NCBI GenBank assembly: GCA_038065855.1
Contig: JBBTQD010000013.1
Span: forward strand, 1 to 57,988
Length of the DNA stretch: 57,988 bases
DNA from: Patescibacteria group bacterium
Lineage (GTDB): Bacteria; Patescibacteriota; Minisyncoccia; 2-02-FULL-40-12
Direction of reading: 5' to 3'
A program made the translations under genes and the position numbers. Below, one piece after another: positions 24,711 to 48,893 of the stretch (its first letter is position 1; every line of letters begins with the position of its first letter). Under the pieces are notes generated by a model that made no database searches, was not told the DNA's origin, and saw only the letters and a list, made by a program, of their open reading frames with translations.

Positions 24711-24711
24711 C

Positions 24712-32391: not shown

Positions 32392-32445
32392 TCCTAAAAA
32401 TCAAAGTCTTGACTTCTAAAGACTGCGGGTTTTTAATTGCCAAAT

Positions 32446-33021: not shown

Positions 33022-33023
33022 AG

Positions 33024-33059: not shown

Positions 33060-33086
33060 GAGGATTCATCCCCACGCTGTCGGGGG

Positions 33087-34856: not shown

Positions 34857-34965
34857 TTCCAACCTCCTTGGTAAGGTGCGAAAAGTTCAGAATTATATTA
34901 TCTATTATTTTTTCAAAAATTACAACAATTGACGCGGACTCAAATTATTGTTATTTAAATCTAAT

Positions 34966-35529
34966 ATGACTAAAAAACTTTTAGAGAAATTCAGAAAAGT
35001 AAAAATTCTTGCCCTTGATAATGACGGTGTGCTTACGCCTTTGTATCTTGATACAGGTGTGATTATGACCAAAGAAGCGGCCAGTCAGCATACTGGCCGG
35101 GATTTCGTTTATGTTTTTGAATCAGCCAGATACTCTCATAAAGACGGCCAGGGCATTGATTTAGTGCGTAAGGAAAATGTTGGAGTATCAGTTTTTATTT
35201 TAACGACCCAAAGAAGCGGTTACGTTCAAGCTCGGGCTTGGAAGCTCGGTGTGCCTTTAGTTCAGAATAAAGATAAGGTTGTTGGATTAAAAGAATACTT
35301 AAAAGAAAATTATCCTAAAGTGAGTATGAAAGAAATTTGTTTTGTTGGCGATAGTACCGGCGATATTGAGATAATGAAACTAGTTGGCGTTTCAGCCTGC
35401 GTGGCTGACGGTGCCAAAGAAGCAAAAAAAGTCGCTGATTATGTTACCAAGGCAAAAGGCGGCGATGGAGCAGTAAGAGAAGTCTGTGATTTAATTATTG
35501 AAGCTAAAACTGGCTCCAAAAGAAAATAA
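34966..35529 (+). CDS. KdsC-type HAD-IIIA sugar-acid phosphate phosphatase, divergent copy (#1)
   Basis: ILALDNDGVLT (DxD motif I); VGDSTGDIE (motif IV); C-terminal ADYVTKAKGGDGAVREVCDLII. Carries a ~30-aa insertion after motif I relative to copies #2 and #3. Confidence 0.65.
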   Translation: MTKKLLEKFRKVKILALDNDGVLTPLYLDTGVIMTKEAASQHTGRDFVYVFESARYSHKDGQGIDLVRKENVGVSVFILTTQRSGYVQARAWKLGVPLVQNKDKVVGLKEYLKENYPKVSMKEICFVGDSTGDIEIMKLVGVSACVADGAKEAKKVADYVTKAKGGDGAVREVCDLIIEAKTGSKRK

Positions 35530-35536
35530 TTAGTTA

Positions 35537-36421
35537 ATGGAAAATATTAAACTGTTTCTGCTTTTTATGATTCCCGGCACTTTTTTCGCCGGGCTTTTAG
35601 ACGTAGTAATTCGGTACGCTTTAAGAGAAGGGAAAATAAATGAGAGGCTGCTCCTTGCTTTTAATTTTTTGTTTTCCGGAATTTTGATTTCTTTTCTTTT
35701 TATTTTTTTCTTTGATTTTCCAGAAATCAAACAAGGTTTTTGGCTGGCTTTATTTATGACTTCTGTTATAGGGATGTTCGGCCACTGGACTTACTACAAG
35801 GCCTTTAGTCAGGATGATGCTTCGGTAATTTCTCCAACCAGATTATTGACTCCGCCGTTTGTTTTGATAACCGGTTTTTTTATTTTGGGTGAGAAAGCAT
35901 CTTTTTGGGGTATGGTCGGTGTTTTAACTACAATAGCCGGGCTTTGGTTTTTAGTTAATCCTGAAGGTAAAAAACTTAGCTTGGCTGGAGTTTTTGAGCA
36001 TAAAGGCATACTATTAGGGATACTAGGTGCTTTGTTTTTCGCATTCTCGTTTCCTTTTGATAAAAAAGCAGTAGTAACATCATCGGCTTTGTTTTTCTCG
36101 GCTGTTTATTTGGTTGTTGTTGGATTTGCTAGTCTGATCATTTACGCCGTTCAGAAAAAAGATTTTTCTATTTATAGAAATTTAAAAGCGAACTGGCGGA
36201 TTATTTTTTTGATGGTTGCGGTGAATATCGCCGGTTTTTTCCTGACTGCCCAGGCTCTCAATTATACATTGGCCGCTTATGCCGCCAGCGTTAAACGGCT
36301 TTGGTCATTTTGGGCGGTTGTGTTAAGCGGCCAACTTTTGGGCGAGAAAGATATAGGCCGAAGGTTAGCTGCTACCAGTATAATGCTTAGCGGCATAGTG
36401 ATAACGACTTTGTTTGGATGA
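35537..36421 (+). CDS. EamA/DMT-family transporter
   Basis: 294 aa with about 10 TM helices in two similar halves; the ends match typical EamA repeats (...ISPTRLLTPPFVLITGFFILGEK...; ...ASVKRLWSFWAVVLSGQLLGEK...). Confidence 0.65.
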   Translation: MENIKLFLLFMIPGTFFAGLLDVVIRYALREGKINERLLLAFNFLFSGILISFLFIFFFDFPEIKQGFWLALFMTSVIGMFGHWTYYKAFSQDDASVISPTRLLTPPFVLITGFFILGEKASFWGMVGVLTTIAGLWFLVNPEGKKLSLAGVFEHKGILLGILGALFFAFSFPFDKKAVVTSSALFFSAVYLVVVGFASLIIYAVQKKDFSIYRNLKANWRIIFLMVAVNIAGFFLTAQALNYTLAAYAASVKRLWSFWAVVLSGQLLGEKDIGRRLAATSIMLSGIVITTLFG

Positions 36422-36423
36422 AT

Positions 36424-36948
36424 TTATTTAATTTTTCCTTCTTTGGCTAAAACAACTAAATCGCAGATTTCTCTTACTGCATGATCCCCGCCTTTTCTTT
36501 TAGTTATATAATCAGCTACTTTTTTACAATTCGGATTAGCGTCAGCAACAGTAAAAGACAGTCCAGCATATTGCATACATTCTAAATCGTTCCAGTCATC
36601 ACCCATAAAAGCCGCCTCCGAGGGGTTTATCTTTTTTTCTTTAAGGATTTTTTTAAAGAGAGTTAATTTATCGTTTATCCCGTGAGCATATTCAGTTTTA
36701 AGTTTTTTACTTCGCGTGGCCACTATTTTGTTTGGTTCTTTTGAAATAACTATTAATTTAAGGCCAAGACGTTGCAATTCATTAATACCCAGTCCGTCTT
36801 TGCGACTACAAACAACATGTTCAATTCCATCTTCGCTCAATATAACCTTTCCATCAGTAAAGATGCCATCAAAATCAAAACCGATGAGTTTAAGTTTTTT
36901 AAGTTTTAGTAAAAGTTTTTTAGGAATTTTTATATAGTTGTTTGACAT
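36424..36948 (-). CDS. KdsC-type HAD-IIIA phosphatase (#2)
   Basis: LIGFDFDGIFTDG...CSRKDGLGI...ISKEPN...MGDDWNDLECMQYAGLSFTVADA...ADYITKRKGGDHAVREICDLV. Confidence 0.8.
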   Translation of the reverse strand: MSNNYIKIPKKLLLKLKKLKLIGFDFDGIFTDGKVILSEDGIEHVVCSRKDGLGINELQRLGLKLIVISKEPNKIVATRSKKLKTEYAHGINDKLTLFKKILKEKKINPSEAAFMGDDWNDLECMQYAGLSFTVADANPNCKKVADYITKRKGGDHAVREICDLVVLAKEGKIK

Positions 36949-36970
36949 ATTATTGATTTAATTATATAAG
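36942..36970 (+). promoter_or_regulatory. Sigma70-like promoter candidate for the P-loop gene
   Basis: TTGACA (36942-36947), 17-nt spacer, TATAAG (36965-36970). About 48 nt upstream of the ATG at 37019, with AAGGAGG at 37007-37013. Confidence 0.45.
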
Positions 36971-37018
36971 TTATTAGTTCGAAAAAGTCAATAGTAATTT
37001 ACCAAAAAGGAGGATGAG

Positions 37019-37753
37019 ATGGATAGTAATCAAAGAATCTTGGTTGGGGTTTTTTCCGGATTGGTCTTCAGCGGTAAGTCGTTCTTTCGGACTTGGGTGA
37101 TGAGTCTGCCCGATTACAAGGACGCCGTGTTTGTAGCCATGGATGACATCCGTCAGCGCTTCTGGCCGAAGAGAAGCGACACTCACATCGTTAAGACCGA
37201 GCATGTTTTCAAGAACGAGGCGACTCGGTTTGAAGTGAAGACCAAGTTGATAATAGAGAGGCCGCTAGCTGTGTTTCTGGAAATGGTGATGCTGACTCGT
37301 GAGGCTCATCAGCGGCCATTTGTGGAGATGATTAAGAGCGTGAATGAGTACCTTCAGACCATCGGAAGAGAAGAGGCCCAGAGAGACGGCAAGCCAGCTT
37401 CCGAATCACCAGTTGAAGTGGATTTCAGGTGCATCTACTTTTACTGTGATTTAGAGACGGTAAAACGGCGAATCGGTTATCGCCAGCGGGAGTTGGAAAC
37501 CGTCGGTAATATATTTAATGCCAGCGTGTTCGATTTCAGCGGTTTCCTGCGCGGAGCCCAACAGATTGAGATTCCGCCGGCTGGCTACATCCCTTTGTAC
37601 CTTGATACTTCAGACGAGTCGGAAGCGGCACTGACTCGCCAGCGCGAAGAGATTCTTTCTTTTTTGAGAGGCGAGATGCCGATCAGTGAAGAAGAACTTC
37701 AGAGACGCGCTGTCGATGCAGTCAGTTTTCTTGACGAAGCTCGTCGTGCCTAA
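37019..37753 (+). CDS. P-loop NTPase / putative small-molecule kinase
   Basis: Walker A GLVFSGKS at the N-terminus (ILVGVFSGLVFSGKS), 244 aa, acidic C-terminal tail. Sampled GC is about 53%. Strong SD. Confidence 0.5.
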   Translation: MDSNQRILVGVFSGLVFSGKSFFRTWVMSLPDYKDAVFVAMDDIRQRFWPKRSDTHIVKTEHVFKNEATRFEVKTKLIIERPLAVFLEMVMLTREAHQRPFVEMIKSVNEYLQTIGREEAQRDGKPASESPVEVDFRCIYFYCDLETVKRRIGYRQRELETVGNIFNASVFDFSGFLRGAQQIEIPPAGYIPLYLDTSDESEAALTRQREEILSFLRGEMPISEEELQRRAVDAVSFLDEARRA

Positions 37754-37780
37754 AATGGTGAATAGGTCGGTAAGAGGCCA

Positions 37781-37816
37781 AAGGCGGAATCTGAAATTTG
37801 ATTCCGCCTTTTTAAT
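37781..37816 (+). terminator. Rho-independent terminator
   Basis: aaggcggaatc-tgaaattt-gattccgcctt followed by tttaatt. Confidence 0.7.
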
Positions 37817-37846
37817 TATGTTAGCTTATATAAATTAAGTAAATTT

Positions 37847-38668
37847 ATGAAGAAGATTCACTTTTCTTACTTTAATATTAAACTTAAGGCTTCAAAGGTT
37901 AAATTAAGTTACTTTGATCGTCCTGGCAAAAAAGGGACGATTGTTTTCATCCACGGTTTAGGCTGTTCAAAAGAAGATTTTATCAATGCCGTAAAAGTTA
38001 AAGGACTTAAAGATTATGAAATTTTTGTTTTTGATTGGCCGGGAGCGGGCAGATCTTCTTACCCTTCTAAAAAGAGTTTAGGGATTAATGATTTAGTTGA
38101 AGTTATTGATTATGTTGTTAAGAAATTTTCATTTAAAAAGTTTATTTTGGTTGGCCATAGTCTTGGTGGAGTAGTCGGTCTTTTATACAGCGTGAAGCAC
38201 CCCCGAAAAGTAGCTGGTTTCATAAATATAGAAGGTAGTTTAGTTTCTCGGAATGCCCGATGGTCTCGAAAGATTAGAAAAATGGGTTTTAGAATCTTTA
38301 AAAATGGGCCGTTTCAGGAATTGAAATCTGCTTTAAAAAAATCTAAAAATTTTGGTTTCAGAAAATACGCCAAAACTTTAGATTCGGTTTTAATAAAATC
38401 TTACTTTGATTTTAGTGTTTCTCACGCCAAAATTTGTAAAAATGAATATCTTCTCAAAAAGTTTTTGGAACTAAAATTACCCAAAATTTTTATTCATGGC
38501 GCAGAAAATAAAAACTGGGTGCCAGTTATAAAGAAATTAAAAAAGAGCGGATGTTCAGTTGCAGGCATATCTAAAAGTCATCACTTTTCATTTATTGATA
38601 ATCCGTCTCTATTTTATAAAGTATTGGCTAAATTTGCTGATGAAGTTTTTGCCAACCAAAAATCTTGA
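37847..38668 (+). CDS. Alpha/beta-fold hydrolase
   Basis: IVFIHGLGCSKEDF (oxyanion region); LVGHSLGG nucleophile elbow; C-terminal SHHFSFIDNP (His). Sampled GC is about 30%. Confidence 0.75.
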   Translation: MKKIHFSYFNIKLKASKVKLSYFDRPGKKGTIVFIHGLGCSKEDFINAVKVKGLKDYEIFVFDWPGAGRSSYPSKKSLGINDLVEVIDYVVKKFSFKKFILVGHSLGGVVGLLYSVKHPRKVAGFINIEGSLVSRNARWSRKIRKMGFRIFKNGPFQELKSALKKSKNFGFRKYAKTLDSVLIKSYFDFSVSHAKICKNEYLLKKFLELKLPKIFIHGAENKNWVPVIKKLKKSGCSVAGISKSHHFSFIDNPSLFYKVLAKFADEVFANQKS

Positions 38669-38693
38669 CAAAAACATTTTATTCTTTTATATT
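38665..38693 (+). promoter_or_regulatory. Sigma70-like promoter candidate for the methyltransferase-cupin pair
   Basis: TTGACA (38665-38670, overlapping the hydrolase stop codon), 17-nt spacer, TATATT (38688-38693). About 70 nt upstream of the ATG at 38766. Confidence 0.5.
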
Positions 38694-38765
38694 CTTTCAA
38701 GCTTCGAGGGATTAAAACCAGCCTCGTTTTAAAAATTAAAGATGAGTTCTAAAGGAAGGTGAAAA

Positions 38766-39845
38766 ATGAACAGCGGTCCGATTCACGCCTATGATCCCAA
38801 AGGCGATCTTTTTGAAGGTTTGTTCCCGGTCATTTATTCTGTTGAAGGCTGGGTTCGCGGTTCGTATCTGCGTCAATCTCAGAATTCAGCACTTCTAGCC
38901 GAAATGGCAAGCGGCGGTCTGAGAGGCAAGGATATTTTAGACATCGGCTGTGGCTACGGTACCACCGCCTTTGCTATTTCTAGCTTCTTCCCGGCCTCAA
39001 TAACGGCTATTGATAGCTCCAAGGCAATGATCGAAATGATGAGGTTTTTGCTTTTGGAGAATGGCGATATTGAGGTATGGTTGATTCAGAGAGGAGCTAA
39101 AGAGGTTTTGGGCCGGCGGTTTGAGCGTACGGCCGAGTACCTGAAGTTTTTCCGGCGATGCTTTCGTCAGAACAGCTTCTGGGCTGAATCCGCTAATCTC
39201 AAAGTAGTCAACTCACTCTTGATGGATTTTTCTTCAAATGTTCCTTTTGATGTGGCTATCGCCAATAATGTTCTTCATTGGCCGGTCAACCAACTCAAGA
39301 AGAAGCACGAAGAAGGGGGACGCAAGCCTGAAACCGACGACTGTATCGTGGAGGCGTTGTTGAAAGTCAAGACTCTTTTGAAGCCTGGCGGAACTCTAGT
39401 GATGATGGAGCCCCGCCAGGTTACCGCCTTAGATACAGATTCTTCTCGAGCAAAAAACTTCGACAAGTTCGGTTCCAACAGCAATCCTGTGTTCGTTAAG
39501 CTGAACCTAACTCTGAATAGGATTCTTATGGAGAGGTACTCTATCGAAAGAGGTGCTCCAAAGGACATCGAGATGTTTAGGACCAGCCGGATGCGGGATT
39601 TGGGCAATAAAGCCGGTTTTGAACTTGAGAGGATGGTTGTGATTGAAGAACCGTCCTTCATCAGGTCGGTTGATTTTTATCCGACCATCATTCCAATCAA
39701 TCTGGCGACTGTGGGTCTGCCATTGACAGAAAAAGTCAAAATCATTCGTGAAGCCGAGGCTGAACTGAATGACACTTTGACTGAAGAAGAAAAGAATCTG
39801 CCAATGCAATCCCAAGCCTTCTACTTCGTTTTCCGGACGGTTTAG
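38766..39845 (+). CDS. Class I SAM-dependent methyltransferase with large insertions
   Basis: ILDIGCGYGTTAFAI (motif I), ITAIDSSKAMIE, FDVAIANNVLHW, LKPGGTLVMMEP. 359 aa. Confidence 0.7.
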   Translation: MNSGPIHAYDPKGDLFEGLFPVIYSVEGWVRGSYLRQSQNSALLAEMASGGLRGKDILDIGCGYGTTAFAISSFFPASITAIDSSKAMIEMMRFLLLENGDIEVWLIQRGAKEVLGRRFERTAEYLKFFRRCFRQNSFWAESANLKVVNSLLMDFSSNVPFDVAIANNVLHWPVNQLKKKHEEGGRKPETDDCIVEALLKVKTLLKPGGTLVMMEPRQVTALDTDSSRAKNFDKFGSNSNPVFVKLNLTLNRILMERYSIERGAPKDIEMFRTSRMRDLGNKAGFELERMVVIEEPSFIRSVDFYPTIIPINLATVGLPLTEKVKIIREAEAELNDTLTEEEKNLPMQSQAFYFVFRTV

Positions 39846-39860
39846 CCCGAAGGAGAAAAA

Positions 39861-40322
39861 ATGAGCGAGCTAAGACCATTCAGGTATGTGTTAGCTAAAA
39901 CAGTCAAAGATTTTTTTGACTGTCCTCTAGAACGGGGAAGCCGCGTTCTGGAAGGATCGAAGAAACTCTACGAAGAGGGGTTTCCGGCCAGATTCGTCCG
40001 GAACTTTCACGTGGAGCATCGGCTGGCCGAAGTTCATCTTCACGAGGATGATGTTTTTTTCTGCATGTACGGTAGTGTTCGCTTCGTTCTCGGTGGCCGG
40101 CTCGTTGATCCTTGGACAAAGAATGGCCTGACTTTCCTTGCAGACAGCATCGAGGGCGGCGAGGAAGTTGTTCTTTCCGATGGCGACTGGCTGCACATCC
40201 CGGCTGGCCAGGCCCATCAGCACTTTACTTCAAACTTTTGCCACTTGATGGTGGTGAAGACAGCTCCGCCGGAAGGCAAGGTCCGGTTGGAGTATTTAGA
40301 GGGCATCGAGATCAAAACCTGA
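39861..40322 (+). CDS. Cupin-fold protein
   Basis: HLHEDDVFFCMYGSVRFVLGG...GDWLHIPAGQAHQH resembles a two-motif cupin. GAAGGAG SD lies 5 nt upstream of the start. Confidence 0.55.
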   Translation: MSELRPFRYVLAKTVKDFFDCPLERGSRVLEGSKKLYEEGFPARFVRNFHVEHRLAEVHLHEDDVFFCMYGSVRFVLGGRLVDPWTKNGLTFLADSIEGGEEVVLSDGDWLHIPAGQAHQHFTSNFCHLMVVKTAPPEGKVRLEYLEGIEIKT

Positions 40323-40333
40323 TCTTAATTGCG

Positions 40334-40366
40334 AACGGGTTCGCCAGATGGCGAACCCGTTTTACT
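40334..40366 (+). terminator. Rho-independent terminator at a convergent junction
   Basis: aacgggttcgcc-agat-ggcgaacccgtt followed by ttactttta. The T-tract runs into the stop codon of the convergent cytidylyltransferase gene. Confidence 0.65.
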
Positions 40367-40367
40367 T

Positions 40368-41105
40368 TTATATCTTTAGAATCCCTTTCTTTCTTAGTTT
40401 CTGAAATTTCATTTCTGCGTCAGCCCACTCATCAGGAGTATTGATGTCAGCCTCGTAATTTGACGGGTCGGGGATGATATAAAGTTCCACTTTATTGCCG
40501 TAAAGATTAGATTTTTTCTCAAAAAGATTTTTTGGCTTTAAGACATAGATAAGGTCATTCCGGGCATAGCACTTTTGCGGAAAGTCCTGGCTCCGGGTAA
40601 TGATATTTTTCAAACTTACTCCGCCCCAGAGACTGACTTTTCCTTTTGGAGAGCGAATTAGAGTCCAATAAGGTGTATGATTGGCTGGAGTTTCATTGAC
40701 TGCCACGACCGAGCTAACCTTCTTCTTTTTGAAAATTTCAATTGCTTCGTCAATGTGGCGGGTTTGTCTTAAGGGGGCAGTAGGCATTAAAAGAACCAAA
40801 GCATTGGCCTTGTAATTCTCGTTTTTCAAAAGCCATTCATAAGCGTGTTTCAAAGTCGGCTCGATACCAATAGTCGGGATAGCTAACTCGGCTGGTCTTA
40901 AAAACGGGACTTCAGCACCGTATTTTTTGGCGATTCTGGCGATTTCTTTATCGTCGGTGGAAACGATTACTCGATCTAGCTGTTTGCTTTTAAGGGCGTT
41001 TAAAATAGTCCAGGCAATCATTGGCTTGCCGCAGAAGTTCCTTATATTTTTTTTCGGTATTCTCTTTGACCCGCCCCGCGCCGGGATAACTGCTACGATT
41101 TTCAT
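40368..41105 (-). CDS. Acylneuraminate/ulosonate cytidylyltransferase (CTP_transf_3 family)
   Basis: MKIVAVIPARGGSKRIPKKNIRNFCGKPMIAWTI...VIVSTDD...LRPAELA.... Confidence 0.85.
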   Translation of the reverse strand: MKIVAVIPARGGSKRIPKKNIRNFCGKPMIAWTILNALKSKQLDRVIVSTDDKEIARIAKKYGAEVPFLRPAELAIPTIGIEPTLKHAYEWLLKNENYKANALVLLMPTAPLRQTRHIDEAIEIFKKKKVSSVVAVNETPANHTPYWTLIRSPKGKVSLWGGVSLKNIITRSQDFPQKCYARNDLIYVLKPKNLFEKKSNLYGNKVELYIIPDPSNYEADINTPDEWADAEMKFQKLRKKGILKI

Positions 41106-41145
41106 GATGCGTTAACTTTAAATCATTCTTATTTGTAAATCAATA

Positions 41146-41694
41146 TTGGACAAAAATAACGATATATTTTATAGTGTTTCAGTGAAAAAAGTTTCTTCTG
41201 TTTTGGAGAAAAAATTAAAAAACATTAAATTCATCGGCTTTGATTTTGACGGGGTTTTTACTGATGCCAGAGTTTATCTTAACCAAGATGGTGTTGAAAC
41301 TATAGTTTGCAGCCGGCGTGACAGCTTGGGCCTTAATCAGATTCGGAAACTTGGGATAAAGCTTGCCGTCATCTCTATGGAGCCGAATCCGGTCATTACC
41401 AAGCGCTGCGAAAAACTAAATATCCCTTGTCATACAGGTAAAGAAAAACTGCCGATGTTTAAGGAAGTTATAAAGTCAGAAAAATTAAAACCAAACCAAG
41501 TCGCTTATTTTGGCGATGACTTGAATGATTTGGAGTGTCTGAAATATGCTGGTTTAGCTTTTACCGTCGCCGATGGCGCGCCGGCCTGCTTAAAAGAAGC
41601 CGACTACGTGACCGAAAGGCGAAGCGGAGATCATGCTGTCAGAGAAGTTTGCGACCTTATTCTCAAAGCCCACAAAGTTAGCCGCTACTTATAA
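41146..41694 (+). CDS. KdsC-type HAD-IIIA phosphatase (#3)
   Basis: FIGFDFDGVFTDA...CSRRDSLGL...ISMEPN...FGDDLNDLECLKYAGLAFTVADG...ADYVTERRSGDHAVREVCDLI. About half the residues are identical to copy #2 by eye. The listed start is TTG, so the exact start is uncertain. Confidence 0.8.
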   Translation: MDKNNDIFYSVSVKKVSSVLEKKLKNIKFIGFDFDGVFTDARVYLNQDGVETIVCSRRDSLGLNQIRKLGIKLAVISMEPNPVITKRCEKLNIPCHTGKEKLPMFKEVIKSEKLKPNQVAYFGDDLNDLECLKYAGLAFTVADGAPACLKEADYVTERRSGDHAVREVCDLILKAHKVSRYL

Positions 41695-42506
41695 TGAAAA
41701 ATCCAATCGGCATAATGCAGGGGCGGTTATCGCCTTCACTTGACGGAAGATTTCAGTTTTTCCCCAGTGACTGGCAGGCCGAATTTAAAATTGCCAAAGA
41801 GTTAGGCTTTGATTTGATTGAGTGGTTTGTTGATTATAGAGACGACGAGCCAAACTCGGTCGGTTTATGGACAGACGATTCAACCAGAAAAAAGATTGAG
41901 GAAGCTTCTAAAATAGTTTCGGTTGTTTCGGCTGATTGCGGCCGACTGGGTCTTTCCGGTAAAAGTTTTTCTGAAAAGTTATTCAAAGATTTTATCTCTT
42001 CGGCTTCCGGAAAAATAAAAACATTCAATATCCCGCTTCTGGAAGAAGCTTCAATTAAGGATGAATTAGCCAGAAAAGAGGCGCTTCAAAACATTGAACA
42101 AATTTTGGAATACGCCGATAAATTTGATGTCCGGATTGGTTTGGAGGTGGATCTAAGAGCCGAAGAACTACTGGATTTTATAAATAAGATCAATTCTTCA
42201 AGAATAGGAGTTTGCTATGATATTGGGAACTGCACTTCCTACGGTTTTAATTGTCCGGAAGAAATAAGAATTTTGGGCGATAAAATATTTGAAGTTCATT
42301 TAAAAGACCGGAAAGTCGGCGGCAATCAGTCGATGACTTTAGGAGAGGCCGATGCCGACTTTGATGGTTGCTTTTTGGCTCTAAAAGAGATAGGATATAA
42401 AGGCAATTATATCTTACAGGCTTGGCGCGGTAAGGATTATCTTGACGATGCCAGAAAACAGCTTGAATTTACCAAAAATAAACTAAATAACCCTGAAAAT
42501 GTCTAA
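41694..42506 (+). CDS. Xylose-isomerase-like TIM-barrel sugar(-phosphate) isomerase/epimerase
   Basis: PIGIMQGRLSP...AKELGFDLIEW...GLEVD...CYDIGN...EVHLKD... gives the metal-ligand spacing of the AP_endonuc_2 / UlaE-SgbU-like family. Confidence 0.65.
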   Translation: MKNPIGIMQGRLSPSLDGRFQFFPSDWQAEFKIAKELGFDLIEWFVDYRDDEPNSVGLWTDDSTRKKIEEASKIVSVVSADCGRLGLSGKSFSEKLFKDFISSASGKIKTFNIPLLEEASIKDELARKEALQNIEQILEYADKFDVRIGLEVDLRAEELLDFINKINSSRIGVCYDIGNCTSYGFNCPEEIRILGDKIFEVHLKDRKVGGNQSMTLGEADADFDGCFLALKEIGYKGNYILQAWRGKDYLDDARKQLEFTKNKLNNPENV

Positions 42507-43320
42507 ATCATTGGAATCTTTTTCACTGAAAGACAAAGTTATAATTATTACCGGCGGAACCGGGAATTTGGGAGTTGATTATTGCGCCGGCCTTTTAAAA
42601 GCCGGAGCCACGGTTATATCTTGGGATTTAAATCCTAAAACAGAAGAAGTTTCAAATAAACTTAAAGAACGCGGCGCCGACACAAATAGGTTTCACAATC
42701 TTAAGGTTGACATTACCAGCGAATCAGAAGTTCAGGCGGCGGTTCAAAATTGTCTTAATTCTTTCGGAAAGATTGACGCATTGATAAATAATGCGGCCAT
42801 GAATCCGGCTGTCGGCATTGACGAGTCAAAAAAATTGTTTGTTCCTTATGAAGAATACCCGATAGAGCTTTGGGAAAAGGAGCTGAAGGTCAATCTTACC
42901 GGGATGATGATTTGTACCAAATCGGTGGCGCCGACAATGATGAAACAGAAAAACGGCTCAATAGTGAATATTGCTTCTGAAGTGGCTAACATTGCCCATG
43001 ATCACAGAGTTTATAACGAACCGGATAAATTTAAGTCGGTTGCCTATGTGACCACCAAGACCGGTATTTTGGGATTTACTCGGCAATGGGCCGCCCGGCT
43101 CGGTTCTTACAATATCCGAGTAAACGCTTTTTCTCCGGGTGGTGTTCAATCGCCGAATGTGCCTAAAGACTTTGCTGAAAGATTCGGCCGGATGAATATG
43201 TTCGGCCGGATGGCCCAACCAGGTGAGTATAACGGCGTGATTATTTTTCTCTGTTCTGATGCTTCTTCTTTTATGACCGGCGCCAATCTGACCGTTGACG
43301 GTGGCAAAAGTGCCTGGTAA
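42499..43320 (+). CDS. Short-chain dehydrogenase/reductase
   Basis: VIIITGGTGNLG; NNAAMNP; S...YVTTK (Ser-Tyr-Lys triad). Confidence 0.85.
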   Translation: MSKSLESFSLKDKVIIITGGTGNLGVDYCAGLLKAGATVISWDLNPKTEEVSNKLKERGADTNRFHNLKVDITSESEVQAAVQNCLNSFGKIDALINNAAMNPAVGIDESKKLFVPYEEYPIELWEKELKVNLTGMMICTKSVAPTMMKQKNGSIVNIASEVANIAHDHRVYNEPDKFKSVAYVTTKTGILGFTRQWAARLGSYNIRVNAFSPGGVQSPNVPKDFAERFGRMNMFGRMAQPGEYNGVIIFLCSDASSFMTGANLTVDGGKSAW

Positions 43321-43400
43321 ATTTAATTTGATGCTTAATCCTCTTGCCAAGTTGGCGAACTTTCTTCGTCTGCGCCCCTCTTTAGAAACAGGAGATGTCC

Positions 43401-43436
43401 AAGGCGCGATGCCCCCATCGCGCCTTTCTTTTTTAT
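43401..43436 (+). terminator. Rho-independent terminator after the SDR gene
   Basis: aaggcgcgatg-cccc-catcgcgcctt followed by tctttttt. It lies inside the listed ORF 43395..44474, which argues that ORF really starts downstream. Confidence 0.7.
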
Positions 43437-43460
43437 ATTGCATTTGGTAAGATTATTTTA

Positions 43461-44474
43461 ATGCCTCTATTTCCTAAGAGATTTTTCCCTCGCCTGGTCC
43501 GGTTCATTACCGGCCGTTCTGCCGAAACCACTCAAGACGTATATATTAATGGTATTGCAGTCGGTCGAGCCAAGTCCTGTTTTTTTGTCGCCGAAATAGG
43601 GATTAATCATAATGGTTCGATTGAAATAGCCAAGAAGCTTATTGATGTAGCAAAAGATGCCGGCGCCCAAGCAGTTAAATTCCAAAAGCGGACTGTACCG
43701 GTTGTATATTCGGTCGAAGAGCTGGCCAAGCTCAGAGCCGTGGATAGGGGAGTTTTGGAAAATGCAATTAAGCGCGGAGTTTTGTCAAAAGAAGCAGTCG
43801 AACGTTTGAAAAAATCAGATTTTAAAGATTCGACCAATGGCGATTTGAAATGGGCTTTGGAATTCACTGAAGCCGAATATAGGGAAATTGACCGATACTC
43901 TAAAGAAAAAGGAATTTTCTGGTTTGCCTCACCTTGGGATGAAGCCAGTGTTGATTTTCTGGAAAAATTAAATCCACCCTGTCACAAAGTTGCTTCAGCT
44001 ATGCTTACCCACACTGGAATTTTGAGAAAACTTAGAGAAGCTGGGAAACCGGTGATCGCATCAACTGGCATGAGTACAATGGAAGAAGTTAAAAATGCGG
44101 TCAATCTTTTATCCGGCATTCCTTTAGTTTTACTTCATACTGTTTCAACTTATCCGGCTAAAGAGGAAGAAGTGAATTTAAGGACGATTGCTAAATTTAG
44201 ACAGGAGTTTCCGAAAATCCCGATAGGTTATAGCGGCCACGAACAAGGAATTGCAGCAACTTTAGCAGCTGCTACTTTAGGCGCCCATGTGATTGAAAGA
44301 CATATCACTCTTGATAAAAAAATGTTCGGTACCGATCAGTCAGCTAGCTTAGAGCCTCAGGAATTTGGCCAAGTTATTAAAGAAGTCCGGGAGATTGAGA
44401 AAGCTTGGGGAGATGGCGTCAAAAGAGTCTGGCCCTCGGAGATTCCGATTAAAGAAAAACTCCGAAAAGTTTAA
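43461..44474 (+). CDS. NeuB-family PEP-condensing sugar-acid synthase, without the C-terminal SAF domain
   Basis: CFFVAEIGINHNGSIEIAKKLIDVAKDAGAQAVKFQKR...FASPWDEASVDFL...KVASAML...STGMSTMEEV...LLHTVSTYPA...NLRTI...IGYSGHEQGIA...GAHVIERHITLDK...DQSASLEP. Ends about 20 aa after the TIM barrel. ATG at 43461 chosen because the terminator lies upstream. Confidence 0.8.
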   Translation: MPLFPKRFFPRLVRFITGRSAETTQDVYINGIAVGRAKSCFFVAEIGINHNGSIEIAKKLIDVAKDAGAQAVKFQKRTVPVVYSVEELAKLRAVDRGVLENAIKRGVLSKEAVERLKKSDFKDSTNGDLKWALEFTEAEYREIDRYSKEKGIFWFASPWDEASVDFLEKLNPPCHKVASAMLTHTGILRKLREAGKPVIASTGMSTMEEVKNAVNLLSGIPLVLLHTVSTYPAKEEEVNLRTIAKFRQEFPKIPIGYSGHEQGIAATLAAATLGAHVIERHITLDKKMFGTDQSASLEPQEFGQVIKEVREIEKAWGDGVKRVWPSEIPIKEKLRKV

Positions 44475-44517
44475 TAAGCTTTAAAGTTTTTCAGTTATCC
44501 GCTAAGGCGGTTTTTTG

Positions 44518-44546
44518 TTGACAGATTTTAGTTATTCTTATACTCT
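44518..44546 (+). promoter_or_regulatory. Weak sigma70-like promoter candidate for the GT-B-like gene
   Basis: TTGACA (44518-44523), 17-nt spacer, TACTCT (44541-44546). Then AAGGAGG (44564-44570) and TTG start at 44577. Confidence 0.35.
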
Positions 44547-44576
44547 ATATGTGGTAATTTCACAAGGAGGTGATAA

Positions 44577-45686
44577 TTGGGAAAGAACTTTTTGTTTGTT
44601 TGCGGCGATATCGGTGGAGCTAGTATGATGGTCTCGGTGGTTCACTCTCTTCAATCCGCCGGCCATAATATCAAGTTTGTGGTTGATGGAGAAGGTGTCG
44701 GTTATCAAGTTTTGCTTGGAGTTCGAATCAGCTTTGAAGTTCAGTTCGAACCGACTTCTTCGGGATCATTTCACATCCCCGCTGATGAAGCAGACCTTGT
44801 TTTTATTAGCACTTGCGCCAGTACCAATAAGATTGGGAAGGCCTATGCCCGAGCTTTTCGTGGCGTCAAGCCGGTAGTTTTCGGTGCTGATGGCTTTTTC
44901 AACCACGGCTACAAGTGGCGCGAAGACGAAGCCGATTTCTGGTTTGCCATCAACGAAGCACACGCCGAGGCGATTCGTTCTCTCCGGCCGCAGCTTGATT
45001 CCGGCCGGGTGAGAGTTGTCGGTCAGCCGGCGTTTGACTCATTGATGGAATTTATTCCGAGGAAGGAACAGATCAGGAATGAACAGCGTCAAGCCTTGGG
45101 AATCGGAGAAAATAAGAAGATGTTTCTTTGGTTTTCTCAAGGTATGCCCGAGGTGATCGAAGAAGACCTGGAGATGATGGCAGAAGGTATAAAATTGTTA
45201 GAACCACTGGCGCCCTACTCTGTTTTCATCCCAAGAGTTCATCCTAAATTGGATAAGCTCAAGTCCGGTTGGGTTGAGAAGATCTACGGCGACTTCGAGC
45301 ATCTCTGTCAGCTCTACGGCATACAGTTTATCAGGGCTGACAAAATCAAAGGCGAAGAGCTATGTCTGGCTTCCGATGTCATTCTTTCAATCACCGCAAC
45401 TGATGACATCAAAAACTGGATGATGGGCGGTCCGCCGGTGATTCACCTGATGGGTCCGCGCGTCAGGCAGTGGTTTGAAAAGGATCTCTTGCTTTCGCCG
45501 CCTTTTTACTTGCCAGATGTTAAATCTGGTGAGGCGCTGGCTGTAACGTCAAGTGAAGAATGGGAAAAAGTGTTGAGGCAAGCACTCGACCCTTCTACCT
45601 GTCAGTTGCTTAGAGAGAAATGGCAGGCACCGCGAGAAAAAGCGACTAAAAAGGTTGCTCGTACTCTAGTTGAACTTGCTTTTTGA
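44577..45686 (+). CDS. Hypothetical GT-B-like protein (glycosyltransferase or NDP-sugar hydrolase/epimerase-like)
   Basis: 369 aa. N-terminal FLFVCGDIGGASMMVSVVHSLQSAGH resembles the first Rossmann beta-alpha of GT-B enzymes, and VRVVGQPAFDSL sits at the domain junction. TTG start lies 6 nt after AAGGAGG. Sampled GC is about 60%. Confidence 0.4.
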   Translation: MGKNFLFVCGDIGGASMMVSVVHSLQSAGHNIKFVVDGEGVGYQVLLGVRISFEVQFEPTSSGSFHIPADEADLVFISTCASTNKIGKAYARAFRGVKPVVFGADGFFNHGYKWREDEADFWFAINEAHAEAIRSLRPQLDSGRVRVVGQPAFDSLMEFIPRKEQIRNEQRQALGIGENKKMFLWFSQGMPEVIEEDLEMMAEGIKLLEPLAPYSVFIPRVHPKLDKLKSGWVEKIYGDFEHLCQLYGIQFIRADKIKGEELCLASDVILSITATDDIKNWMMGGPPVIHLMGPRVRQWFEKDLLLSPPFYLPDVKSGEALAVTSSEEWEKVLRQALDPSTCQLLREKWQAPREKATKKVARTLVELAF

Positions 45687-45697
45687 AATTGTCTCAT

Positions 45698-45729
45698 AAA
45701 GGCCGCTTCGGCGGCCTTTCGTCTTTTTA
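45698..45729 (+). terminator. Rho-independent terminator
   Basis: aaaggccgc-ttcg-gcggccttt (GNRA-like/UUCG loop) followed by cgtcttttt. Confidence 0.7.
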
Positions 45730-45752
45730 TAAAAGTTGATATTATTGGGCAG

Positions 45753-46700: not shown

Positions 46701-46704
46701 ATTT

Positions 46705-48862: not shown

Positions 48863-48893
48863 TCTATTAATTAAATATCACCTAACTTTATAT

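What the first reader, a model, noticed from the sequence alone, without database searches (positions are those of the whole stretch)
34966..44474. Candidate phospho-sugar route to a CMP-activated higher-carbon ulosonic acid (SAF-less NeuB-like synthase, three KdsC-type phosphatases, one cytidylyltransferase)
This 9.5-kb stretch contains the following genes:
- a NeuB-family PEP-condensing synthase (43461-44474)
- three KdsC-type HAD-IIIA phosphatases (34966-35529, 36424-36948 minus, 41146-41694)
- a CTP_transf_3 cytidylyltransferase (40368-41105 minus)
- a xylose-isomerase-like TIM barrel
- an SDR
- an EamA transporter

A NeuB-type synthase paired with a KdsC-type phosphatase is the logic of the phosphorylated routes, in which sugar-6-P plus PEP gives ulosonate-9-P, which is then dephosphorylated and CMP-activated. 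Examples known to me are the KDN pathway characterised in Bacteroides thetaiotaomicron and the animal Neu5Ac-9-P route. It is not the classical bacterial NeuC/NeuB route.

Several details are unusual:
- The synthase stops about 20 aa after the TIM barrel, so it lacks the SAF/antifreeze-like domain of canonical NeuB/PseI/LegI.
- It has a ~40-aa Arg/Phe-rich N-terminal extension.
- There are three phosphatase paralogues instead of one.
- No NeuC/PseB/LegB-type genes that would define a known nonulosonate are present.

The sugar made here may therefore not be one of the described ulosonic acids.
Basis: partly seen in the sequence, partly recalled or inferred. Interest (0 to 1): 0.75.

Follow-up and report, generated by a model that had tools for sequence, protein, structure and literature searches.

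The report
Sialic-acid-like sugar pathway in Patescibacteria
A tiny groundwater bacterium carries genes that most likely build an activated sialic-acid-like sugar by the phosphate-tagged route that animals use, with a shortened synthase from a widespread, unstudied family, so the sugar may be new.

Summary
All the listed genes sit at the stated coordinates, in a Patescibacteria (CPR) groundwater MAG.

**The synthase (43461-44474).** It has an intact NeuB-type catalytic barrel and no SAF domain, and this is not an artefact. It belongs to a monophyletic SAF-less family found in at least 412 GTDB species. Its closest characterised relative is the animal Neu5Ac-9-phosphate synthase NANS (40% identity; shared KFQK and GYSGHE motifs), not bacterial NeuB or PseI. 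That independently supports a phosphorylated substrate.

**The neighbours.**
- In related loci the synthase recurs with a NeuA-like CMP-transferase, KdsC-type phosphatases, an SDR, a sugar-phosphate-epimerase-like TIM barrel and a B12 radical-SAM enzyme.
- The three phosphatases are three old, distinct orthogroups, not recent duplicates.

**Best reading.** Sedoheptulose-7-P is isomerised to heptose-7-P, condensed with PEP into an ulosonate phosphate, dephosphorylated, CMP-activated, tailored and transferred. The phosphorylated route has probability about 0.8; the ten-carbon product about 0.4. A KDN-type nine-carbon acid is the main rival.

**Correction.** The N-terminal extension is not a family feature.

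**Verdict.** New variant of a known kind. No literature on this family was found.

The parts
32437..33021 (+). GmhA, sedoheptulose-7-P isomerase (phosphoheptose isomerase). Proposed supplier of the aldose phosphate.
   Evidence: TIGR00441 scores 205.3 bits against a cut-off of 209.45. It scores 185.7 bits to C. jejuni GmhA (PDB 1tk9), with the conserved GNGGSAADAQHF, STSG and IQExH stretches aligned. A homologue lies directly next to the synthase in 15 related loci.
33087..34862 (-). B12-binding radical-SAM enzyme (class B). Proposed C-methylase of the sugar or its CMP derivative.
   Evidence: Pfam Radical_SAM plus B12-binding. Present in 12 of 38 complete related loci, usually beside the CMP-transferase and HAD1. 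The function is inferred.
34948..35529 (+). KdsC-type HAD-IIIA phosphatase, paralogue 1 (the 'core cassette' orthogroup, with a ~17-aa insertion).
   Evidence: TIGR01670 scores 81.7 bits, below the cut-off of 106.95. The DxD motif is kept. Its orthogroup always follows the radical-SAM gene.
35537..36421 (+). EamA-family transporter.
   Evidence: Pfam EamA, 98.7 bits. It belongs to the accessory module shared with locus L009 at 87% identity.
36424..36948 (-). KdsC-type HAD-IIIA phosphatase, paralogue 2 (the orthogroup paired with the P-loop kinase-like gene).
   Evidence: TIGR01670 scores 130.8 bits, above the cut-off. The best PDB matches are KdsC/YrbI proteins. The orthogroup is shown.
37019..37753 (+). 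P-loop (Walker A GLVFSGKS) kinase-like protein of unknown substrate.
   Evidence: Weak Pfam AAA_33 match. No PDB relative was found. It recurs next to HAD2 orthologues.
37847..38668 (+). Alpha/beta hydrolase (accessory module).
   Evidence: Pfam Abhydrolase_1, 78.4 bits. Shared with L009.
38766..39845 (+). SAM-dependent methyltransferase (accessory module).
   Evidence: Pfam Methyltransf_23/31/25.
39861..40322 (+). Small cupin-like protein (accessory module).
   Evidence: Weak Cupin_2 and JmjC_2 matches.
40368..41105 (-). NeuA/PseF-like CMP-ulosonate synthetase.
   Evidence: Pfam CTP_transf_3, 89.6 bits. PseF TIGR03584 scores 175.4 bits against a cut-off of 205.7. Full-length PDB matches are to NeuA proteins; KdsB matches cover only the N-terminal ~70 residues.
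41146..41694 (+). KdsC-type HAD-IIIA phosphatase, paralogue 3 (the orthogroup upstream of the SDR and synthase).
   Evidence: TIGR01670 scores 109.2 bits, above the cut-off. The orthogroup is shown.
41694..42506 (+). Xylose-isomerase-like TIM barrel. Closest to L-ribulose-5-P 3-epimerase (UlaE) and other keto-sugar epimerases.
   Evidence: Pfam AP_endonuc_2, 90.7 bits. Weak NCBIfam and PDB matches to UlaE. It forms a recurrent TIM-SDR-synthase trio.
42499..43320 (+). Classical SDR oxidoreductase (best matches are gluconate-5- and KDG-5-dehydrogenase-like).
   Evidence: Pfam adh_short_C2, 157 bits. It is the most frequent neighbour of the synthase: 29 of 38 loci, directly adjacent in 12.
43461..44474 (+). 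SAF-less, NANS-like PEP-condensing ulosonate(-phosphate) synthase.
   Evidence: Supported. The catalytic and metal residues of N. meningitidis NeuB are kept. It is 40% identical to human NANS. The family is monophyletic in 97.5-99% of bootstraps.
44577..45686 (+). Candidate ulosonate transferase (distant BFO_1060-family glycosyltransferase).
   Evidence: NCBIfam NF046086 gives E 1.4e-4 for the window protein and 1.2e-10 for a homologue. BFO_1060 is a homologue of the putative nonulosonic-acid transferases of Tannerella (PMC5420450). The gene sits directly after the synthase in L012, L061, L076 and L079. This is a weak lead.
45753..47406 (+). Two SAM-dependent methyltransferases (45753-46700 and 46705-47406) that follow the synthase in many related loci.
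   Evidence: Pfam. The order synthase-MT-MT-Wzx-Wzy recurs.
27548..28918 (+). TagF-like glycerophosphotransferase-family protein, a frequent member of the same cassette.
   Evidence: Pfam Glyphos_transf. Present in 13 of 38 related loci, often next to the CMP-transferase.
47501..51134 (.). Initiating sugar-phosphate transferase (47501-48862, minus strand) and a Wzy_C/O-antigen-ligase-like protein fused to TPR repeats (48894-51134, plus strand). Together these are the assembly machinery that would use the activated sugar.
   Evidence: Pfam Bac_transf 227 bits and Wzy_C 69 bits plus TPR. The Wzy_C-TPR gene is conserved downstream of the cassette in 13 of 38 loci.

Best explanation
The stretch from about 32.4 to 47.4 kb is a cassette for a CMP-activated, non-aminated, sialic-acid-like (3-deoxy-2-ulosonic) sugar made by a phosphorylated route.

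Proposed steps:
1. GmhA (32437-33021) converts sedoheptulose-7-P into D-glycero-D-manno-heptose-7-P.
2. The SAF-less NANS-like synthase (43461-44474) condenses this aldose phosphate with PEP. The product is a ten-carbon 3-deoxy-2-ulosonate carrying a terminal phosphate.
3. A KdsC-type phosphatase removes the phosphate.
4. The NeuA-like enzyme (40368-41105) makes the CMP-sugar.
5. The SDR and epimerase-like TIM barrel, the B12 radical-SAM enzyme and the methyltransferases tailor the sugar.
6. The BFO_1060-like protein (44577-45686) transfers it onto a glycan assembled by the Bac_transf, Wzx and Wzy_C-TPR machinery of the same locus.

What is shown and what is inferred:
- Shown: the gene identities, the conservation of the catalytic residues, the family relationships and the gene linkage.
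- Inferred: every substrate and product.
- Sub-confidences: phosphorylated route to a CMP-ulosonate about 0.8; heptose-7-P as the aldose (a C10 product) about 0.4.
For: **The synthase is probably an active PEP-condensing enzyme.**
- The N. meningitidis NeuB residues E25, K53, Q55, K129, S132, S154, Y186, S213, H215, E234, H236 and D247 align with identical residues.
- The AF2 model has pLDDT 94.7 and a NeuB-type barrel.

**A phosphorylated substrate is indicated.**
- The synthase is 40% identical to human Neu5Ac-9-P synthase (226 bits). That sequence was verified as NP_061819.2.
- By contrast it scores 113 bits to N. meningitidis NeuB and is 25-30% identical to NeuB/PseI structures in the fold search.
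- The motifs KFQK, GYSGHE and ERHITLD are shared with NANS. Canonical bacterial NeuB has KFQT, GYSDHT and EKHFT.
- Trees place the family (97.5-99% bootstrap) with NANS, with 69-79% support, apart from PGAP-named NeuB and PseI.
- K76 and R77, directly after the KFQ strand, are invariant in the family.
- KdsC-type HADs lie within 10 kb in 21 of 38 complete loci. They directly follow the synthase in Gammaproteobacteria, Syntrophobacter, Planctomycetales and Methylomagnum.

**CMP activation is indicated.** A NeuA-like CTP_transf_3 gene is present in 27 of 38 loci.

**Heptose-7-P is indicated.**
- The GmhA is genuine.
- It is directly adjacent to the synthase in 15 loci, on either side, in several synthase subclades and in archaeal MAGs.
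- Compact operons occur. L053 has synthase, a CMP-transferase-MT fusion, HAD and GmhA. L059 has GmhA, HAD, TIM, SDR and synthase.
- L061 carries the window's core genes (CMP-transferase, radical-SAM enzyme, three HADs, the kinase-like gene, SDR, synthase, downstream transferase and methyltransferases) but not the TIM barrel or transporter. There GmhA lies right after the synthase.
- No kinase or sugar-1-P nucleotidyltransferase of an NDP-heptose pathway was found in the window.
Against: - No biochemical data exist for any member of the family.
- GmhA is present in only 12 of 38 complete loci. In the window it lies 10 kb from the synthase.
- The window also encodes a GT9 (heptosyltransferase-family) protein at 26415-27551, so GmhA could serve an ordinary heptose pathway whose other genes lie elsewhere in the genome.
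- Minimal cassettes such as Giovannonibacteria L002 have neither a HAD nor GmhA nearby.
- The grouping with NANS has only 69-79% bootstrap support in simple NJ trees. NANS itself has a SAF-like domain.
- In Azospirillum thermophilum a SAF-less relative sits beside legB, legC and neuC. Not every family member need use a phosphorylated or heptose substrate.
- To my knowledge, no natural ten-carbon 3-deoxy-2-ulosonic acid has been described.
Confidence: 0.4

Rival explanations
1. The same phosphorylated route, but the aldose is mannose-6-P (or another hexose-6-P) from central metabolism. The product is then KDN-9-P and finally CMP-KDN or a methylated or epimerised KDN derivative, as in Bacteroides thetaiotaomicron and Prymnesium parvum. 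GmhA serves an unrelated heptose glycan.
For: - The nearest characterised relative, NANS, also makes KDN-9-P from Man-6-P (reference 20 cited in PMC6200933).
- The synthase, KdsC-type phosphatase and NeuA-like synthetase trio is exactly the B. thetaiotaomicron and P. parvum scheme.
- GmhA is absent from two thirds of complete related loci.
- A GT9 heptosyltransferase-family gene in the window could account for GmhA.
- No aminotransferase or N-acetyltransferase is present, which fits a deaminated acid.
Against: - This reading does not explain why GmhA is the immediate neighbour of the synthase in 15 loci, including four-gene operons.
- The three HADs score far below the KDN-9-P phosphatase equivalog: 67-93 bits against a cut-off of 180.
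- No NDP-heptose kinase or nucleotidyltransferase lies in the window.
Confidence: 0.3
2. The same phosphorylated route, but the aldose phosphate is a non-standard sugar phosphate. It would be made first by the SDR and the epimerase-like TIM barrel (and, in other loci, by transaldolase or transketolase and aminotransferases). The carbon number and stereochemistry would then differ from both KDN and the heptose-derived acid.
For: - The TIM-SDR-synthase trio is the tightest recurrent linkage: SDR in 29 of 38 loci and adjacent in 12.
- The TIM barrel's closest relatives are sugar-phosphate 3-epimerases.
- L007 has a TAL_FSA transaldolase in the cassette.
- Methylomagnum has a split transketolase and a class-III aminotransferase just upstream.
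Against: - The SDR's best matches are dehydrogenases of sugar acids (gluconate-5- and KDG-5-dehydrogenase). This fits tailoring after condensation equally well.
- No direct evidence bears on the order of the steps.
Confidence: 0.15
3. A classical non-phosphorylated bacterial route. The SAF-less synthase condenses a free sugar with PEP, and the KdsC-like proteins serve other purposes.
For: - A SAF-less relative in Azospirillum thermophilum lies beside legB, legC, neuC and an acetyltransferase, the non-phosphorylated legionaminic-acid genes.
- Some loci have no HAD nearby.
Against: - The window has no NeuC, PseB or LegB-type gene and no aminotransferase.
- The family groups with the phospho-substrate enzyme NANS and shares its motifs.
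- HADs directly follow the synthase in several phyla.
- The Azospirillum plasmid also carries a separate canonical neuB (H51).
- In N. meningitidis NeuB the SAF domain supplies Arg314 to the free-sugar site (my knowledge). That residue has no counterpart here.
Confidence: 0.08
4. An analogue of the Kdo pathway. The NeuB-like enzyme would replace KdsA and make Kdo-8-P (C8) from arabinose-5-P, followed by KdsC and a CMP-Kdo synthetase.
For: - The HADs' best named matches are KdsC.
- KpsC/KpsS-like Capsule_synth genes (beta-Kdo transferase family) occur in some related loci.
- The pathway logic is identical.
Against: - The isomerase is a GmhA, not a KdsD/KpsF.
- The cytidylyltransferase matches NeuA and PseF over its full length but KdsB only over about 70 residues.
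- All HADs score below the KdsC equivalog cut-off.
Confidence: 0.05

Closest known systems
Animal N-acetylneuraminate-9-phosphate synthase (NANS, EC 2.5.1.57) and the Neu5Ac-9-P route
   Same: - NANS is the closest characterised relative of the synthase: 40% identity over the barrel, with the KFQK, GYSGHE and ERHITLDK motifs shared.
- The logic is the same: sugar phosphate plus PEP, then a phosphatase, then CMP activation.
   Different: - NANS keeps a C-terminal antifreeze-like/SAF domain, which the window enzyme lacks.
- Most CPR members of the family have a 26-aa two-helix insertion after the KFQKRT strand.
- Animals use a different type of HAD phosphatase (NANP).
- No ManNAc-6-P-forming genes are present here.
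KDN pathway of Bacteroides thetaiotaomicron (Kdn-9-P synthetase, Kdn-9-P phosphatase BT1713 = Q8A712, CMP-Kdn synthetase) and Prymnesium parvum
   Same: - A NeuB-family synthase uses a phosphorylated, non-aminated sugar.
- A KdsC-type C0 HAD phosphatase and a NeuA-type CMP synthetase follow (PMC6200933).
   Different: - The window HADs fall far below the KDN-9-P phosphatase equivalog cut-off.
- The window has three phosphatase orthogroups instead of one.
- GmhA, a B12 radical-SAM enzyme, an SDR and an epimerase-like TIM barrel are linked to the synthase here.
- I could not obtain the B. thetaiotaomicron synthase sequence for comparison.
Kdo pathway KdsD-KdsA-KdsC-KdsB
   Same: The same four-step logic: ketose-P isomerase, PEP condensation, KdsC-type phosphatase, CMP activation. 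The phosphatases belong to the same YrbI/KdsC subfamily.
   Different: - The synthase is NeuB-fold, not KdsA.
- The isomerase is GmhA, not KdsD.
- The cytidylyltransferase is NeuA-like, not KdsB.
- The host has no LPS.
Bacterial NeuB, PseI and LegI nonulosonate synthases
   Same: Same Pfam domain (PF03102), same fold and same catalytic and metal residues.
   Different: - The window enzyme has no SAF domain.
- It scores far below both equivalog cut-offs.
- It falls outside these clades in trees.
- The partner genes NeuC, PseB/C and LegB/C are absent.
Leptospira borgpetersenii 290-aa 'N-acetylneuraminic acid synthetase' (PDB 6ncs)
   Same: It is also SAF-less and is the best sequence match in the PDB (141 bits).
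   Different: - It keeps the canonical GYSDHS motif.
- It has a shorter, not longer, segment after the KFQ strand.
- It falls outside the family, near or with the canonical NeuB sequences, in the trees. It represents an independent loss of the SAF domain.

Membership tests
Canonical NeuB/PseI/LegI nonulosonate synthases | NeuB TIM-barrel domain (PF03102) with metal- and PEP-binding residues | tested here: met
   PF03102 scores 245.8 bits. Residues equivalent to N. meningitidis NeuB E25, K53, Q55, K129, S132, S154, Y186, S213, H215, E234, H236 and D247 are conserved. The fold was confirmed.
Canonical NeuB/PseI/LegI nonulosonate synthases | C-terminal SAF/antifreeze-like domain (PF08666) | tested here: not met
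   The protein ends about 59 aa after the ExH motif, against 113-126 aa in the canonical enzymes. No SAF domain occurs in any scanned ORF of the window. The homologues carry PF03102 only.
Canonical NeuB/PseI/LegI nonulosonate synthases | Score above the NCBIfam equivalog cut-off (TIGR03569 NeuB; TIGR03586 PseI) | tested here: not met
   253 bits against a cut-off of 399.65, and 202.4 bits against 340.25.
Canonical NeuB/PseI/LegI nonulosonate synthases | Partner genes that make the free 2-acetamido sugar (NeuC; PseB/C/H/G; LegB/C/H/G) | tested here: not met
   No Epimerase_2, DegT aminotransferase or acetyltransferase was found among the window ORFs scanned.
Phospho-route synthases (NANS, EC 2.5.1.57; KDN-9-P synthase) | Closer in sequence to NANS than to the bacterial free-sugar enzymes | tested here: met
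   40% identity and 226 bits to human NANS, against 113 bits to N. meningitidis NeuB. The clade with NANS has 69-79% bootstrap support.
Phospho-route synthases (NANS, EC 2.5.1.57; KDN-9-P synthase) | Uses a terminally phosphorylated aldose and releases an ulosonate phosphate | not testable with these tools
   An enzyme assay is needed. The only indirect support is the linkage to KdsC-type phosphatases and the invariant K76/R77.
Phospho-route synthases (NANS, EC 2.5.1.57; KDN-9-P synthase) | Dedicated ulosonate-phosphate phosphatase encoded with it (bacterial examples) | tested here: met
   Three KdsC-type HADs lie in the cassette. HADs are within 10 kb in 21 of 38 related loci and directly adjacent in several phyla.
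KdsC/YrbI HAD-IIIA (C0) sugar-acid phosphate phosphatases | HAD motifs I-IV and a score above the TIGR01670 subfamily cut-off (106.95) | tested here: met
   The DxD and GDxxxD motifs are present in all three. HAD2 scores 130.8 and HAD3 109.2, both above the cut-off. HAD1 scores 81.7, below it.
KdsC proper (Kdo-8-P phosphatase) or BT1713-type KDN-9-P phosphatase | Score above the equivalog cut-off (NF007019, 208; NF058599, 180) | tested here: not met
   The three HADs score 93-130 bits and 67-93 bits respectively. They cannot be named as either enzyme.
CMP-ulosonate synthetases (CTP_transf_3: NeuA/PseF/LegF/KdsB) | CTP_transf_3 domain with a full-length match to NeuA-type enzymes | tested here: met
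   PF02348 scores 89.6 bits. PDB NeuA matches cover residues 3-234. The PseF equivalog scores 175.4 bits against a cut-off of 205.7, so no specific name can be assigned.
GmhA phosphoheptose isomerase | SIS fold with GmhA motifs and a score at the equivalog level | tested here: inconclusive
   TIGR00441 scores 205.3 bits against a cut-off of 209.45, just below it. It scores 185.7 bits to C. jejuni GmhA with the conserved stretches aligned. It is very probably GmhA.
Kdo biosynthesis system | KdsA (DAHP-synthase-family Kdo-8-P synthase), KdsD and KdsB | tested here: not met
   None of the window ORFs scanned matches KdsA or KdsD. The cytidylyltransferase matches KdsB only over about 70 N-terminal residues.

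The most novel reading that the evidence does not exclude
Patescibacteria, some DPANN archaea and scattered other bacteria make a previously undescribed class of CMP-activated ten-carbon 3-deoxy-2-ulosonic acids. These would be built from heptose-7-phosphate and PEP by a SAF-less relative of animal sialic acid synthase, and further C-methylated by a B12 radical-SAM enzyme and O-methylated. They would decorate the cell-surface glycans or glycoproteins of these episymbionts.
Probability: 0.3. Interest if true: 0.85.

Novelty: new variant of a known kind. Interest (0 to 1): 0.65.

Why it matters
Sialic-acid-like sugars are surface signatures that govern cell-cell recognition, phage attachment and immune evasion.

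- **A dedicated pathway in reduced genomes.** Patescibacteria live attached to other cells and have very small genomes. A conserved, elaborate cassette for such a sugar (motif-defined synthase family in at least 412 species) suggests that it matters for their lifestyle.
- **An unstudied enzyme family.** The synthase family is annotated only as 'N-acetylneuraminate synthase family protein', and my searches found no study of it.
- **Origin of the animal route.** Its affinity to animal NANS offers a prokaryotic relative of the phosphorylated animal route. This bears on where that route came from.
- **A possible new sugar.** If the substrate is heptose-7-P, the product would be a new kind of natural sugar.
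- **Easy to test.** All the proteins are small and soluble-looking, and the candidate substrates can be bought or made enzymatically.

Tried and rejected
- **Frameshift or assembly artefact for the missing SAF domain: rejected.** The architecture is conserved in all 120 best homologues. There is no room or ORF for a SAF domain after the stop codon.
- **N-terminal Arg/Phe-rich extension as a family feature: rejected.** It is variable and absent in P0092 and P0120.
- **Apparent synthase fusions in L083 (616 aa), L050 (563 aa) and L043 (449 aa): artefacts.** They come from ORF calling through high-GC sequence or runs of N, not from real fusions.
- **PDB 6ncs (SAF-less, Leptospira) as a family member: rejected.** It carries the canonical motifs and sits outside the clade.
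- **Literature searches.** Searches for Patescibacteria/CPR with nonulosonic acid or sialic acid synthase, for NeuB lacking a SAF domain, and for NeuB with GmhA or KdsC found nothing relevant. The B. thetaiotaomicron KDN paper (PMC4425688) is not held.
- **Context of the NANS-like, SAF-containing Streptomyces gene.** It lies in a secondary-metabolite-type cluster and was uninformative.
- **The P-loop protein at 37019-37753.** It has no PDB or NCBIfam relative.

Full report
**Source and setting.**
The window is a large glycan-biosynthesis island. It holds many GT1, GT2 and GT9 glycosyltransferases and several methyltransferases. It also holds a Wzx-like flippase (5412-6692) and a carbamoyltransferase (24685-26418). 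The assembly genes are an initiating Bac_transf enzyme (47501-48862, minus strand) and a Wzy_C-TPR protein (48894-51134). Housekeeping genes (SecA, MsrB, SecF, a Mur ligase) bound it downstream. The synthase sequence is identical to a protein NCBI names 'N-acetylneuraminate synthase family protein [Patescibacteria group bacterium]'. It occurs on contigs from Hainich groundwater metagenomes.

**Check of the observation.**
- The three HAD proteins are 35-40% identical to each other. All keep the DxD nucleophile motif and the GDxxxD motif.
- Two of them pass the cut-off of the YrbI/KdsC subfamily model; the first does not. None reaches the equivalog cut-offs for KdsC or for the Bacteroides KDN-9-P phosphatase.
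- The cytidylyltransferase matches NeuA-type structures over its full length and KdsB only over its first ~70 residues.
- The synthase has a strong NeuB domain, but its match to the NeuB equivalog stops at profile position 278 of 329. Its scores (253 and 202 bits) are far below the NeuB and PseI cut-offs of 400 and 340.

**The missing SAF domain is genuine and defines a family.**
- The 120 best database homologues (54-100% identical, 312-372 aa) all carry PF03102 alone.
- In an alignment, all end at a conserved '...PIxEKLRK' motif. A canonical NeuB from a Giovannonibacteria locus continues there for about 60 more residues into the SAF domain.
- No scanned ORF of the window has a SAF domain, and only about 100 bp follow the stop codon.
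- A scan of one genome per GTDB species with two family-specific peptide patterns found 412 confirmed loci. The best 80 are mostly Patescibacteria of the Paceibacteria type: Yanofsky-, Kaiser-, Giovannoni-, Zambryski-, Wildermuth- and Campbellbacteria.
- The 80 also include MAGs labelled Woesearchaeota, Gammaproteobacteria, Alphaproteobacteria, Chloroflexia, Planctomycetales and Syntrophobacter.
- Cultured relatives exist in Methylomagnum, Nonomuraea, Hymenobacter and Azospirillum thermophilum.
- Most CPR members have a 26-aa insertion after the KFQKRT strand. AlphaFold models it confidently as two helices (residues 96-118; overall pLDDT 94.7). The non-CPR members lack it.

**Is the enzyme active, and on what kind of substrate?**
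- *Catalytic residues.* Alignment to N. meningitidis NeuB shows that the metal ligands (H215, H236), the acid/base residues (E25, E234, D247) and the PEP- and sugar-binding residues (K53, Q55, K129, S132, S154, Y186, S213) are all conserved. Arg314, which the SAF domain of the partner subunit contributes in that enzyme (my knowledge of the structure), has no counterpart here. The fold search returns NeuB, PseI and SpsE first, then the DAH7P and KDO8P synthases.
- *Affinity to NANS.* I compared the protein with human N-acetylneuraminate-9-phosphate synthase. I recalled that sequence from memory, and an exact look-up confirmed it as NP_061819.2/SIAS_HUMAN. The window enzyme is 40% identical to it over the whole barrel (226 bits, E 6e-76). 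This is clearly better than its match to any bacterial NeuB or PseI structure.
- *Shared motifs.* The family shares KFQK, GYSGHE and ERHITLDK with NANS, where canonical bacterial NeuB has KFQT, GYSDHT and EKHFT.
- *Trees.* In neighbour-joining trees the SAF-less family is monophyletic (99% and 97.5% of bootstraps). It groups with NANS (79%). With wider sampling it groups with NANS plus a SAF-containing Streptomyces protein (69%). PGAP-named NeuB and PseI and the SAF-less Leptospira protein 6ncs are excluded.
- *Reciprocal search.* A search with NANS against plasmid-borne homologues agrees. SAF-less relatives are 39-40% identical on the barrel, and named neuB genes 33-37%.
- *Consequence.* NANS uses ManNAc-6-P and Man-6-P (background in PMC6200933). 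This relationship therefore supports a phosphorylated substrate independently of gene context.
- *Possible phosphate site.* K76 and R77, directly after the KFQ strand, are invariant in the family. They occupy the place where KDO8P and DAH7P synthases carry the Arg of their KANRS and KPRS/T motifs, which binds the sugar phosphate. That is my knowledge of those enzymes, so this is an inference and was not tested.

**Gene context across about 80 non-redundant related loci**.
Among the 38 loci with at least 8 kb on both sides, the counts within 10 kb of the synthase are:

| Neighbour | Loci (of 38) | Note |
|---|---|---|
| SDR | 29 | directly adjacent in 12 |
| NeuA-like CMP-transferase | 27 | |
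| KdsC-type HAD | 21 | |
| Epimerase-like TIM barrel | 13 | |
| TagF-like protein | 13 | |
| Wzy_C-TPR protein | 13 | |
| B12 radical-SAM enzyme | 12 | |
| GmhA | 12 | directly adjacent in 6 |
| GmhA or a HAD | 28 | |

- Across all loci, GmhA is the immediate neighbour of the synthase in 15. It lies on either side, in several synthase subclades and in archaeal MAGs.
- A recurrent CPR cassette reads: TagF-like, CMP-transferase, radical-SAM enzyme, HAD, TIM barrel, SDR, synthase, two methyltransferases, Wzx, Wzy_C-TPR (L044, L058, L060, L066, L023, L067).
- Very compact versions exist. A Woesearchaeota MAG has synthase, a CMP-transferase-methyltransferase fusion, HAD and GmhA in a row. L059 has GmhA, HAD, TIM barrel, SDR and synthase.
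- In Proteobacteria, Planctomycetales and Methylomagnum a HAD-IIIA gene directly follows the synthase.
- No kinase or sugar-1-P nucleotidyltransferase of an NDP-heptose pathway was found in the window.

**The three phosphatases.**
A tree of the HADs from all loci resolves three orthogroups, each with its own syntenic partner:
- HAD1 follows the radical-SAM gene.
- HAD2 is paired with the P-loop kinase-like gene.
- HAD3 precedes the SDR and synthase.

A Yanofskybacteria locus (L061) has a synthase only 50% identical to the window's. It carries all three HADs and most of the same cassette genes, without the TIM barrel or the EamA transporter. GmhA lies right after its synthase.
The paralogues are therefore old and presumably have different substrates. 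Their roles cannot be assigned from sequence.
The window cassette looks like a mosaic of two parts:
- a core module, as in L008: radical-SAM enzyme, HAD1, CMP-transferase, TIM barrel, SDR, synthase (81-90% identical where measured; the radical-SAM enzyme 61%, the synthase 70%);
- an accessory module, as in L009: EamA, HAD2, kinase-like protein, hydrolase, methyltransferase, cupin (71-88% identical).

**Downstream gene.**
The 369-aa protein at 44577-45686 has no Pfam match. It and a homologue hit the NCBIfam 'BFO_1060 family glycosyltransferase' model (E 1.4e-4 and 1.2e-10). BFO_1060 is a homologue of the putative pseudaminic- and legionaminic-acid transferases of Tannerella forsythia (PMC5420450). 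This makes it a weak candidate for the transferase of the new sugar. In another locus a polysialyltransferase-like gene follows synthase and GmhA.

**Interpretation.**
- The best-supported mechanism parallels the Kdo pathway with non-orthologous parts: a ketose-phosphate isomerase (GmhA), a PEP-condensing synthase (NANS-like, SAF-less), a KdsC-type phosphatase and a NeuA-like CMP synthetase. Tailoring and transfer follow.
- I put the phosphorylated route at about 0.8.
- The identity of the aldose is less secure. The GmhA linkage points to D-glycero-D-manno-heptose-7-P and hence a ten-carbon acid (about 0.4).
- Man-6-P giving a KDN-type acid is the conservative alternative (about 0.3). A sugar phosphate remodelled first by the SDR and TIM barrel is a third option (about 0.15).
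- A free-sugar route and a Kdo analogue are unlikely.
- The lack of any aminotransferase or acetyltransferase argues for a non-aminated acid in this organism. Other loci carry DegT or class-III aminotransferases and probably make amino derivatives.

**Novelty.**
Full-text searches found no study of this family or of nonulosonic acids in Patescibacteria. The pathway type is known from animals, B. thetaiotaomicron and P. parvum. The synthase architecture, the linked GmhA, radical-SAM, SDR and TIM-barrel genes, the three phosphatase orthogroups and the host lineages are new. I therefore rate it a new variant of a known kind, with a real chance that the product is a new sugar.

**Limits.**
- All functional statements are inferences from sequence.
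- The trees are simple distance trees on 263 columns with limited reference sampling.
- The B. thetaiotaomicron synthase could not be included.
- Some taxon labels of TPA MAGs (for example 'uncultured Candidatus Saccharibacteria' or 'Gammaproteobacteria') may be unreliable.

Noticed in passing
window 30000-46000 versus 4000-30000: The ulosonate cassette region has higher G+C (0.40-0.48) than most of the glycosyltransferase region upstream (mostly 0.33-0.39). Together with its mosaic similarity to two different loci (L008 and L009), this suggests that the cassette is exchanged as modules.
   Followed up: partly
window 48894-51134: A Wzy_C (O-antigen ligase/polymerase-like) domain is fused to C-terminal TPR repeats. 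The gene is conserved downstream of the cassette in 13 of 38 related loci, just upstream of SecA in several. It could be a polymerase, a ligase or a PglL-like protein O-oligosaccharyltransferase.
   Followed up: no
window 26415-27551: A GT9 (heptosyltransferase-family) gene occurs in a bacterium that, from general knowledge, lacks LPS. Its sugar donor is unknown. It is the main reason why GmhA might serve another pathway.
   Followed up: no
window 1478-2590, 30904-32391, 51131-52855: Three large proteins with PG_binding_1 (peptidoglycan-binding) domains are interspersed in the glycan locus. A similar protein flanks the Giovannonibacteria locus.
   Followed up: no
window 6696-7343 and 11409-12628: There are short NAD-dependent epimerase/RmlD-like ORFs of 215 and 255 aa, matching only the N-terminal half of the Pfam models. 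The second is followed by an overlapping 163-aa cupin-like/FdtA-like ORF. These may be truncated or split genes, or unusual short forms.
   Followed up: no
L088 (Methylomagnum ishizawai plasmid pRS11DPr1), locus coordinates 4898-10510: In a cultured methanotroph the SAF-less synthase sits in the order: split transketolase, class-III aminotransferase, SDR, synthase, HAD-IIIA. This organism is tractable for testing the family.
   Followed up: partly
L006 (CPR MAG), locus coordinates 252-1160 and 15794-17620: A sulfotransferase and a fused ATP-sulfurylase/APS-kinase (PAPS synthesis) lie in the same cassette as the synthase. Another locus (L063) has a sulfotransferase directly after the synthase. 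The sugar or glycan may be sulfated in some lineages.
   Followed up: no
L002/L003/L004 (Giovannonibacteria), locus coordinates 2039-10945: One locus carries both a canonical NeuC, NeuB+SAF and dehydratase set and the SAF-less synthase with its own CMP-transferase. A KpsC/KpsS-like Capsule_synth gene and an ABC transporter are also present. The two synthase types therefore coexist and are presumably not redundant.
   Followed up: partly
L086, L069, L087 (Syntrophobacter and Gammaproteobacteria MAGs), about 1.3 kb downstream of the synthase: A ~610-aa thiamine-diphosphate enzyme (acetolactate-synthase-like) follows synthase and HAD in the non-CPR branch. This hints at a different tailoring chemistry there.
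   Followed up: no
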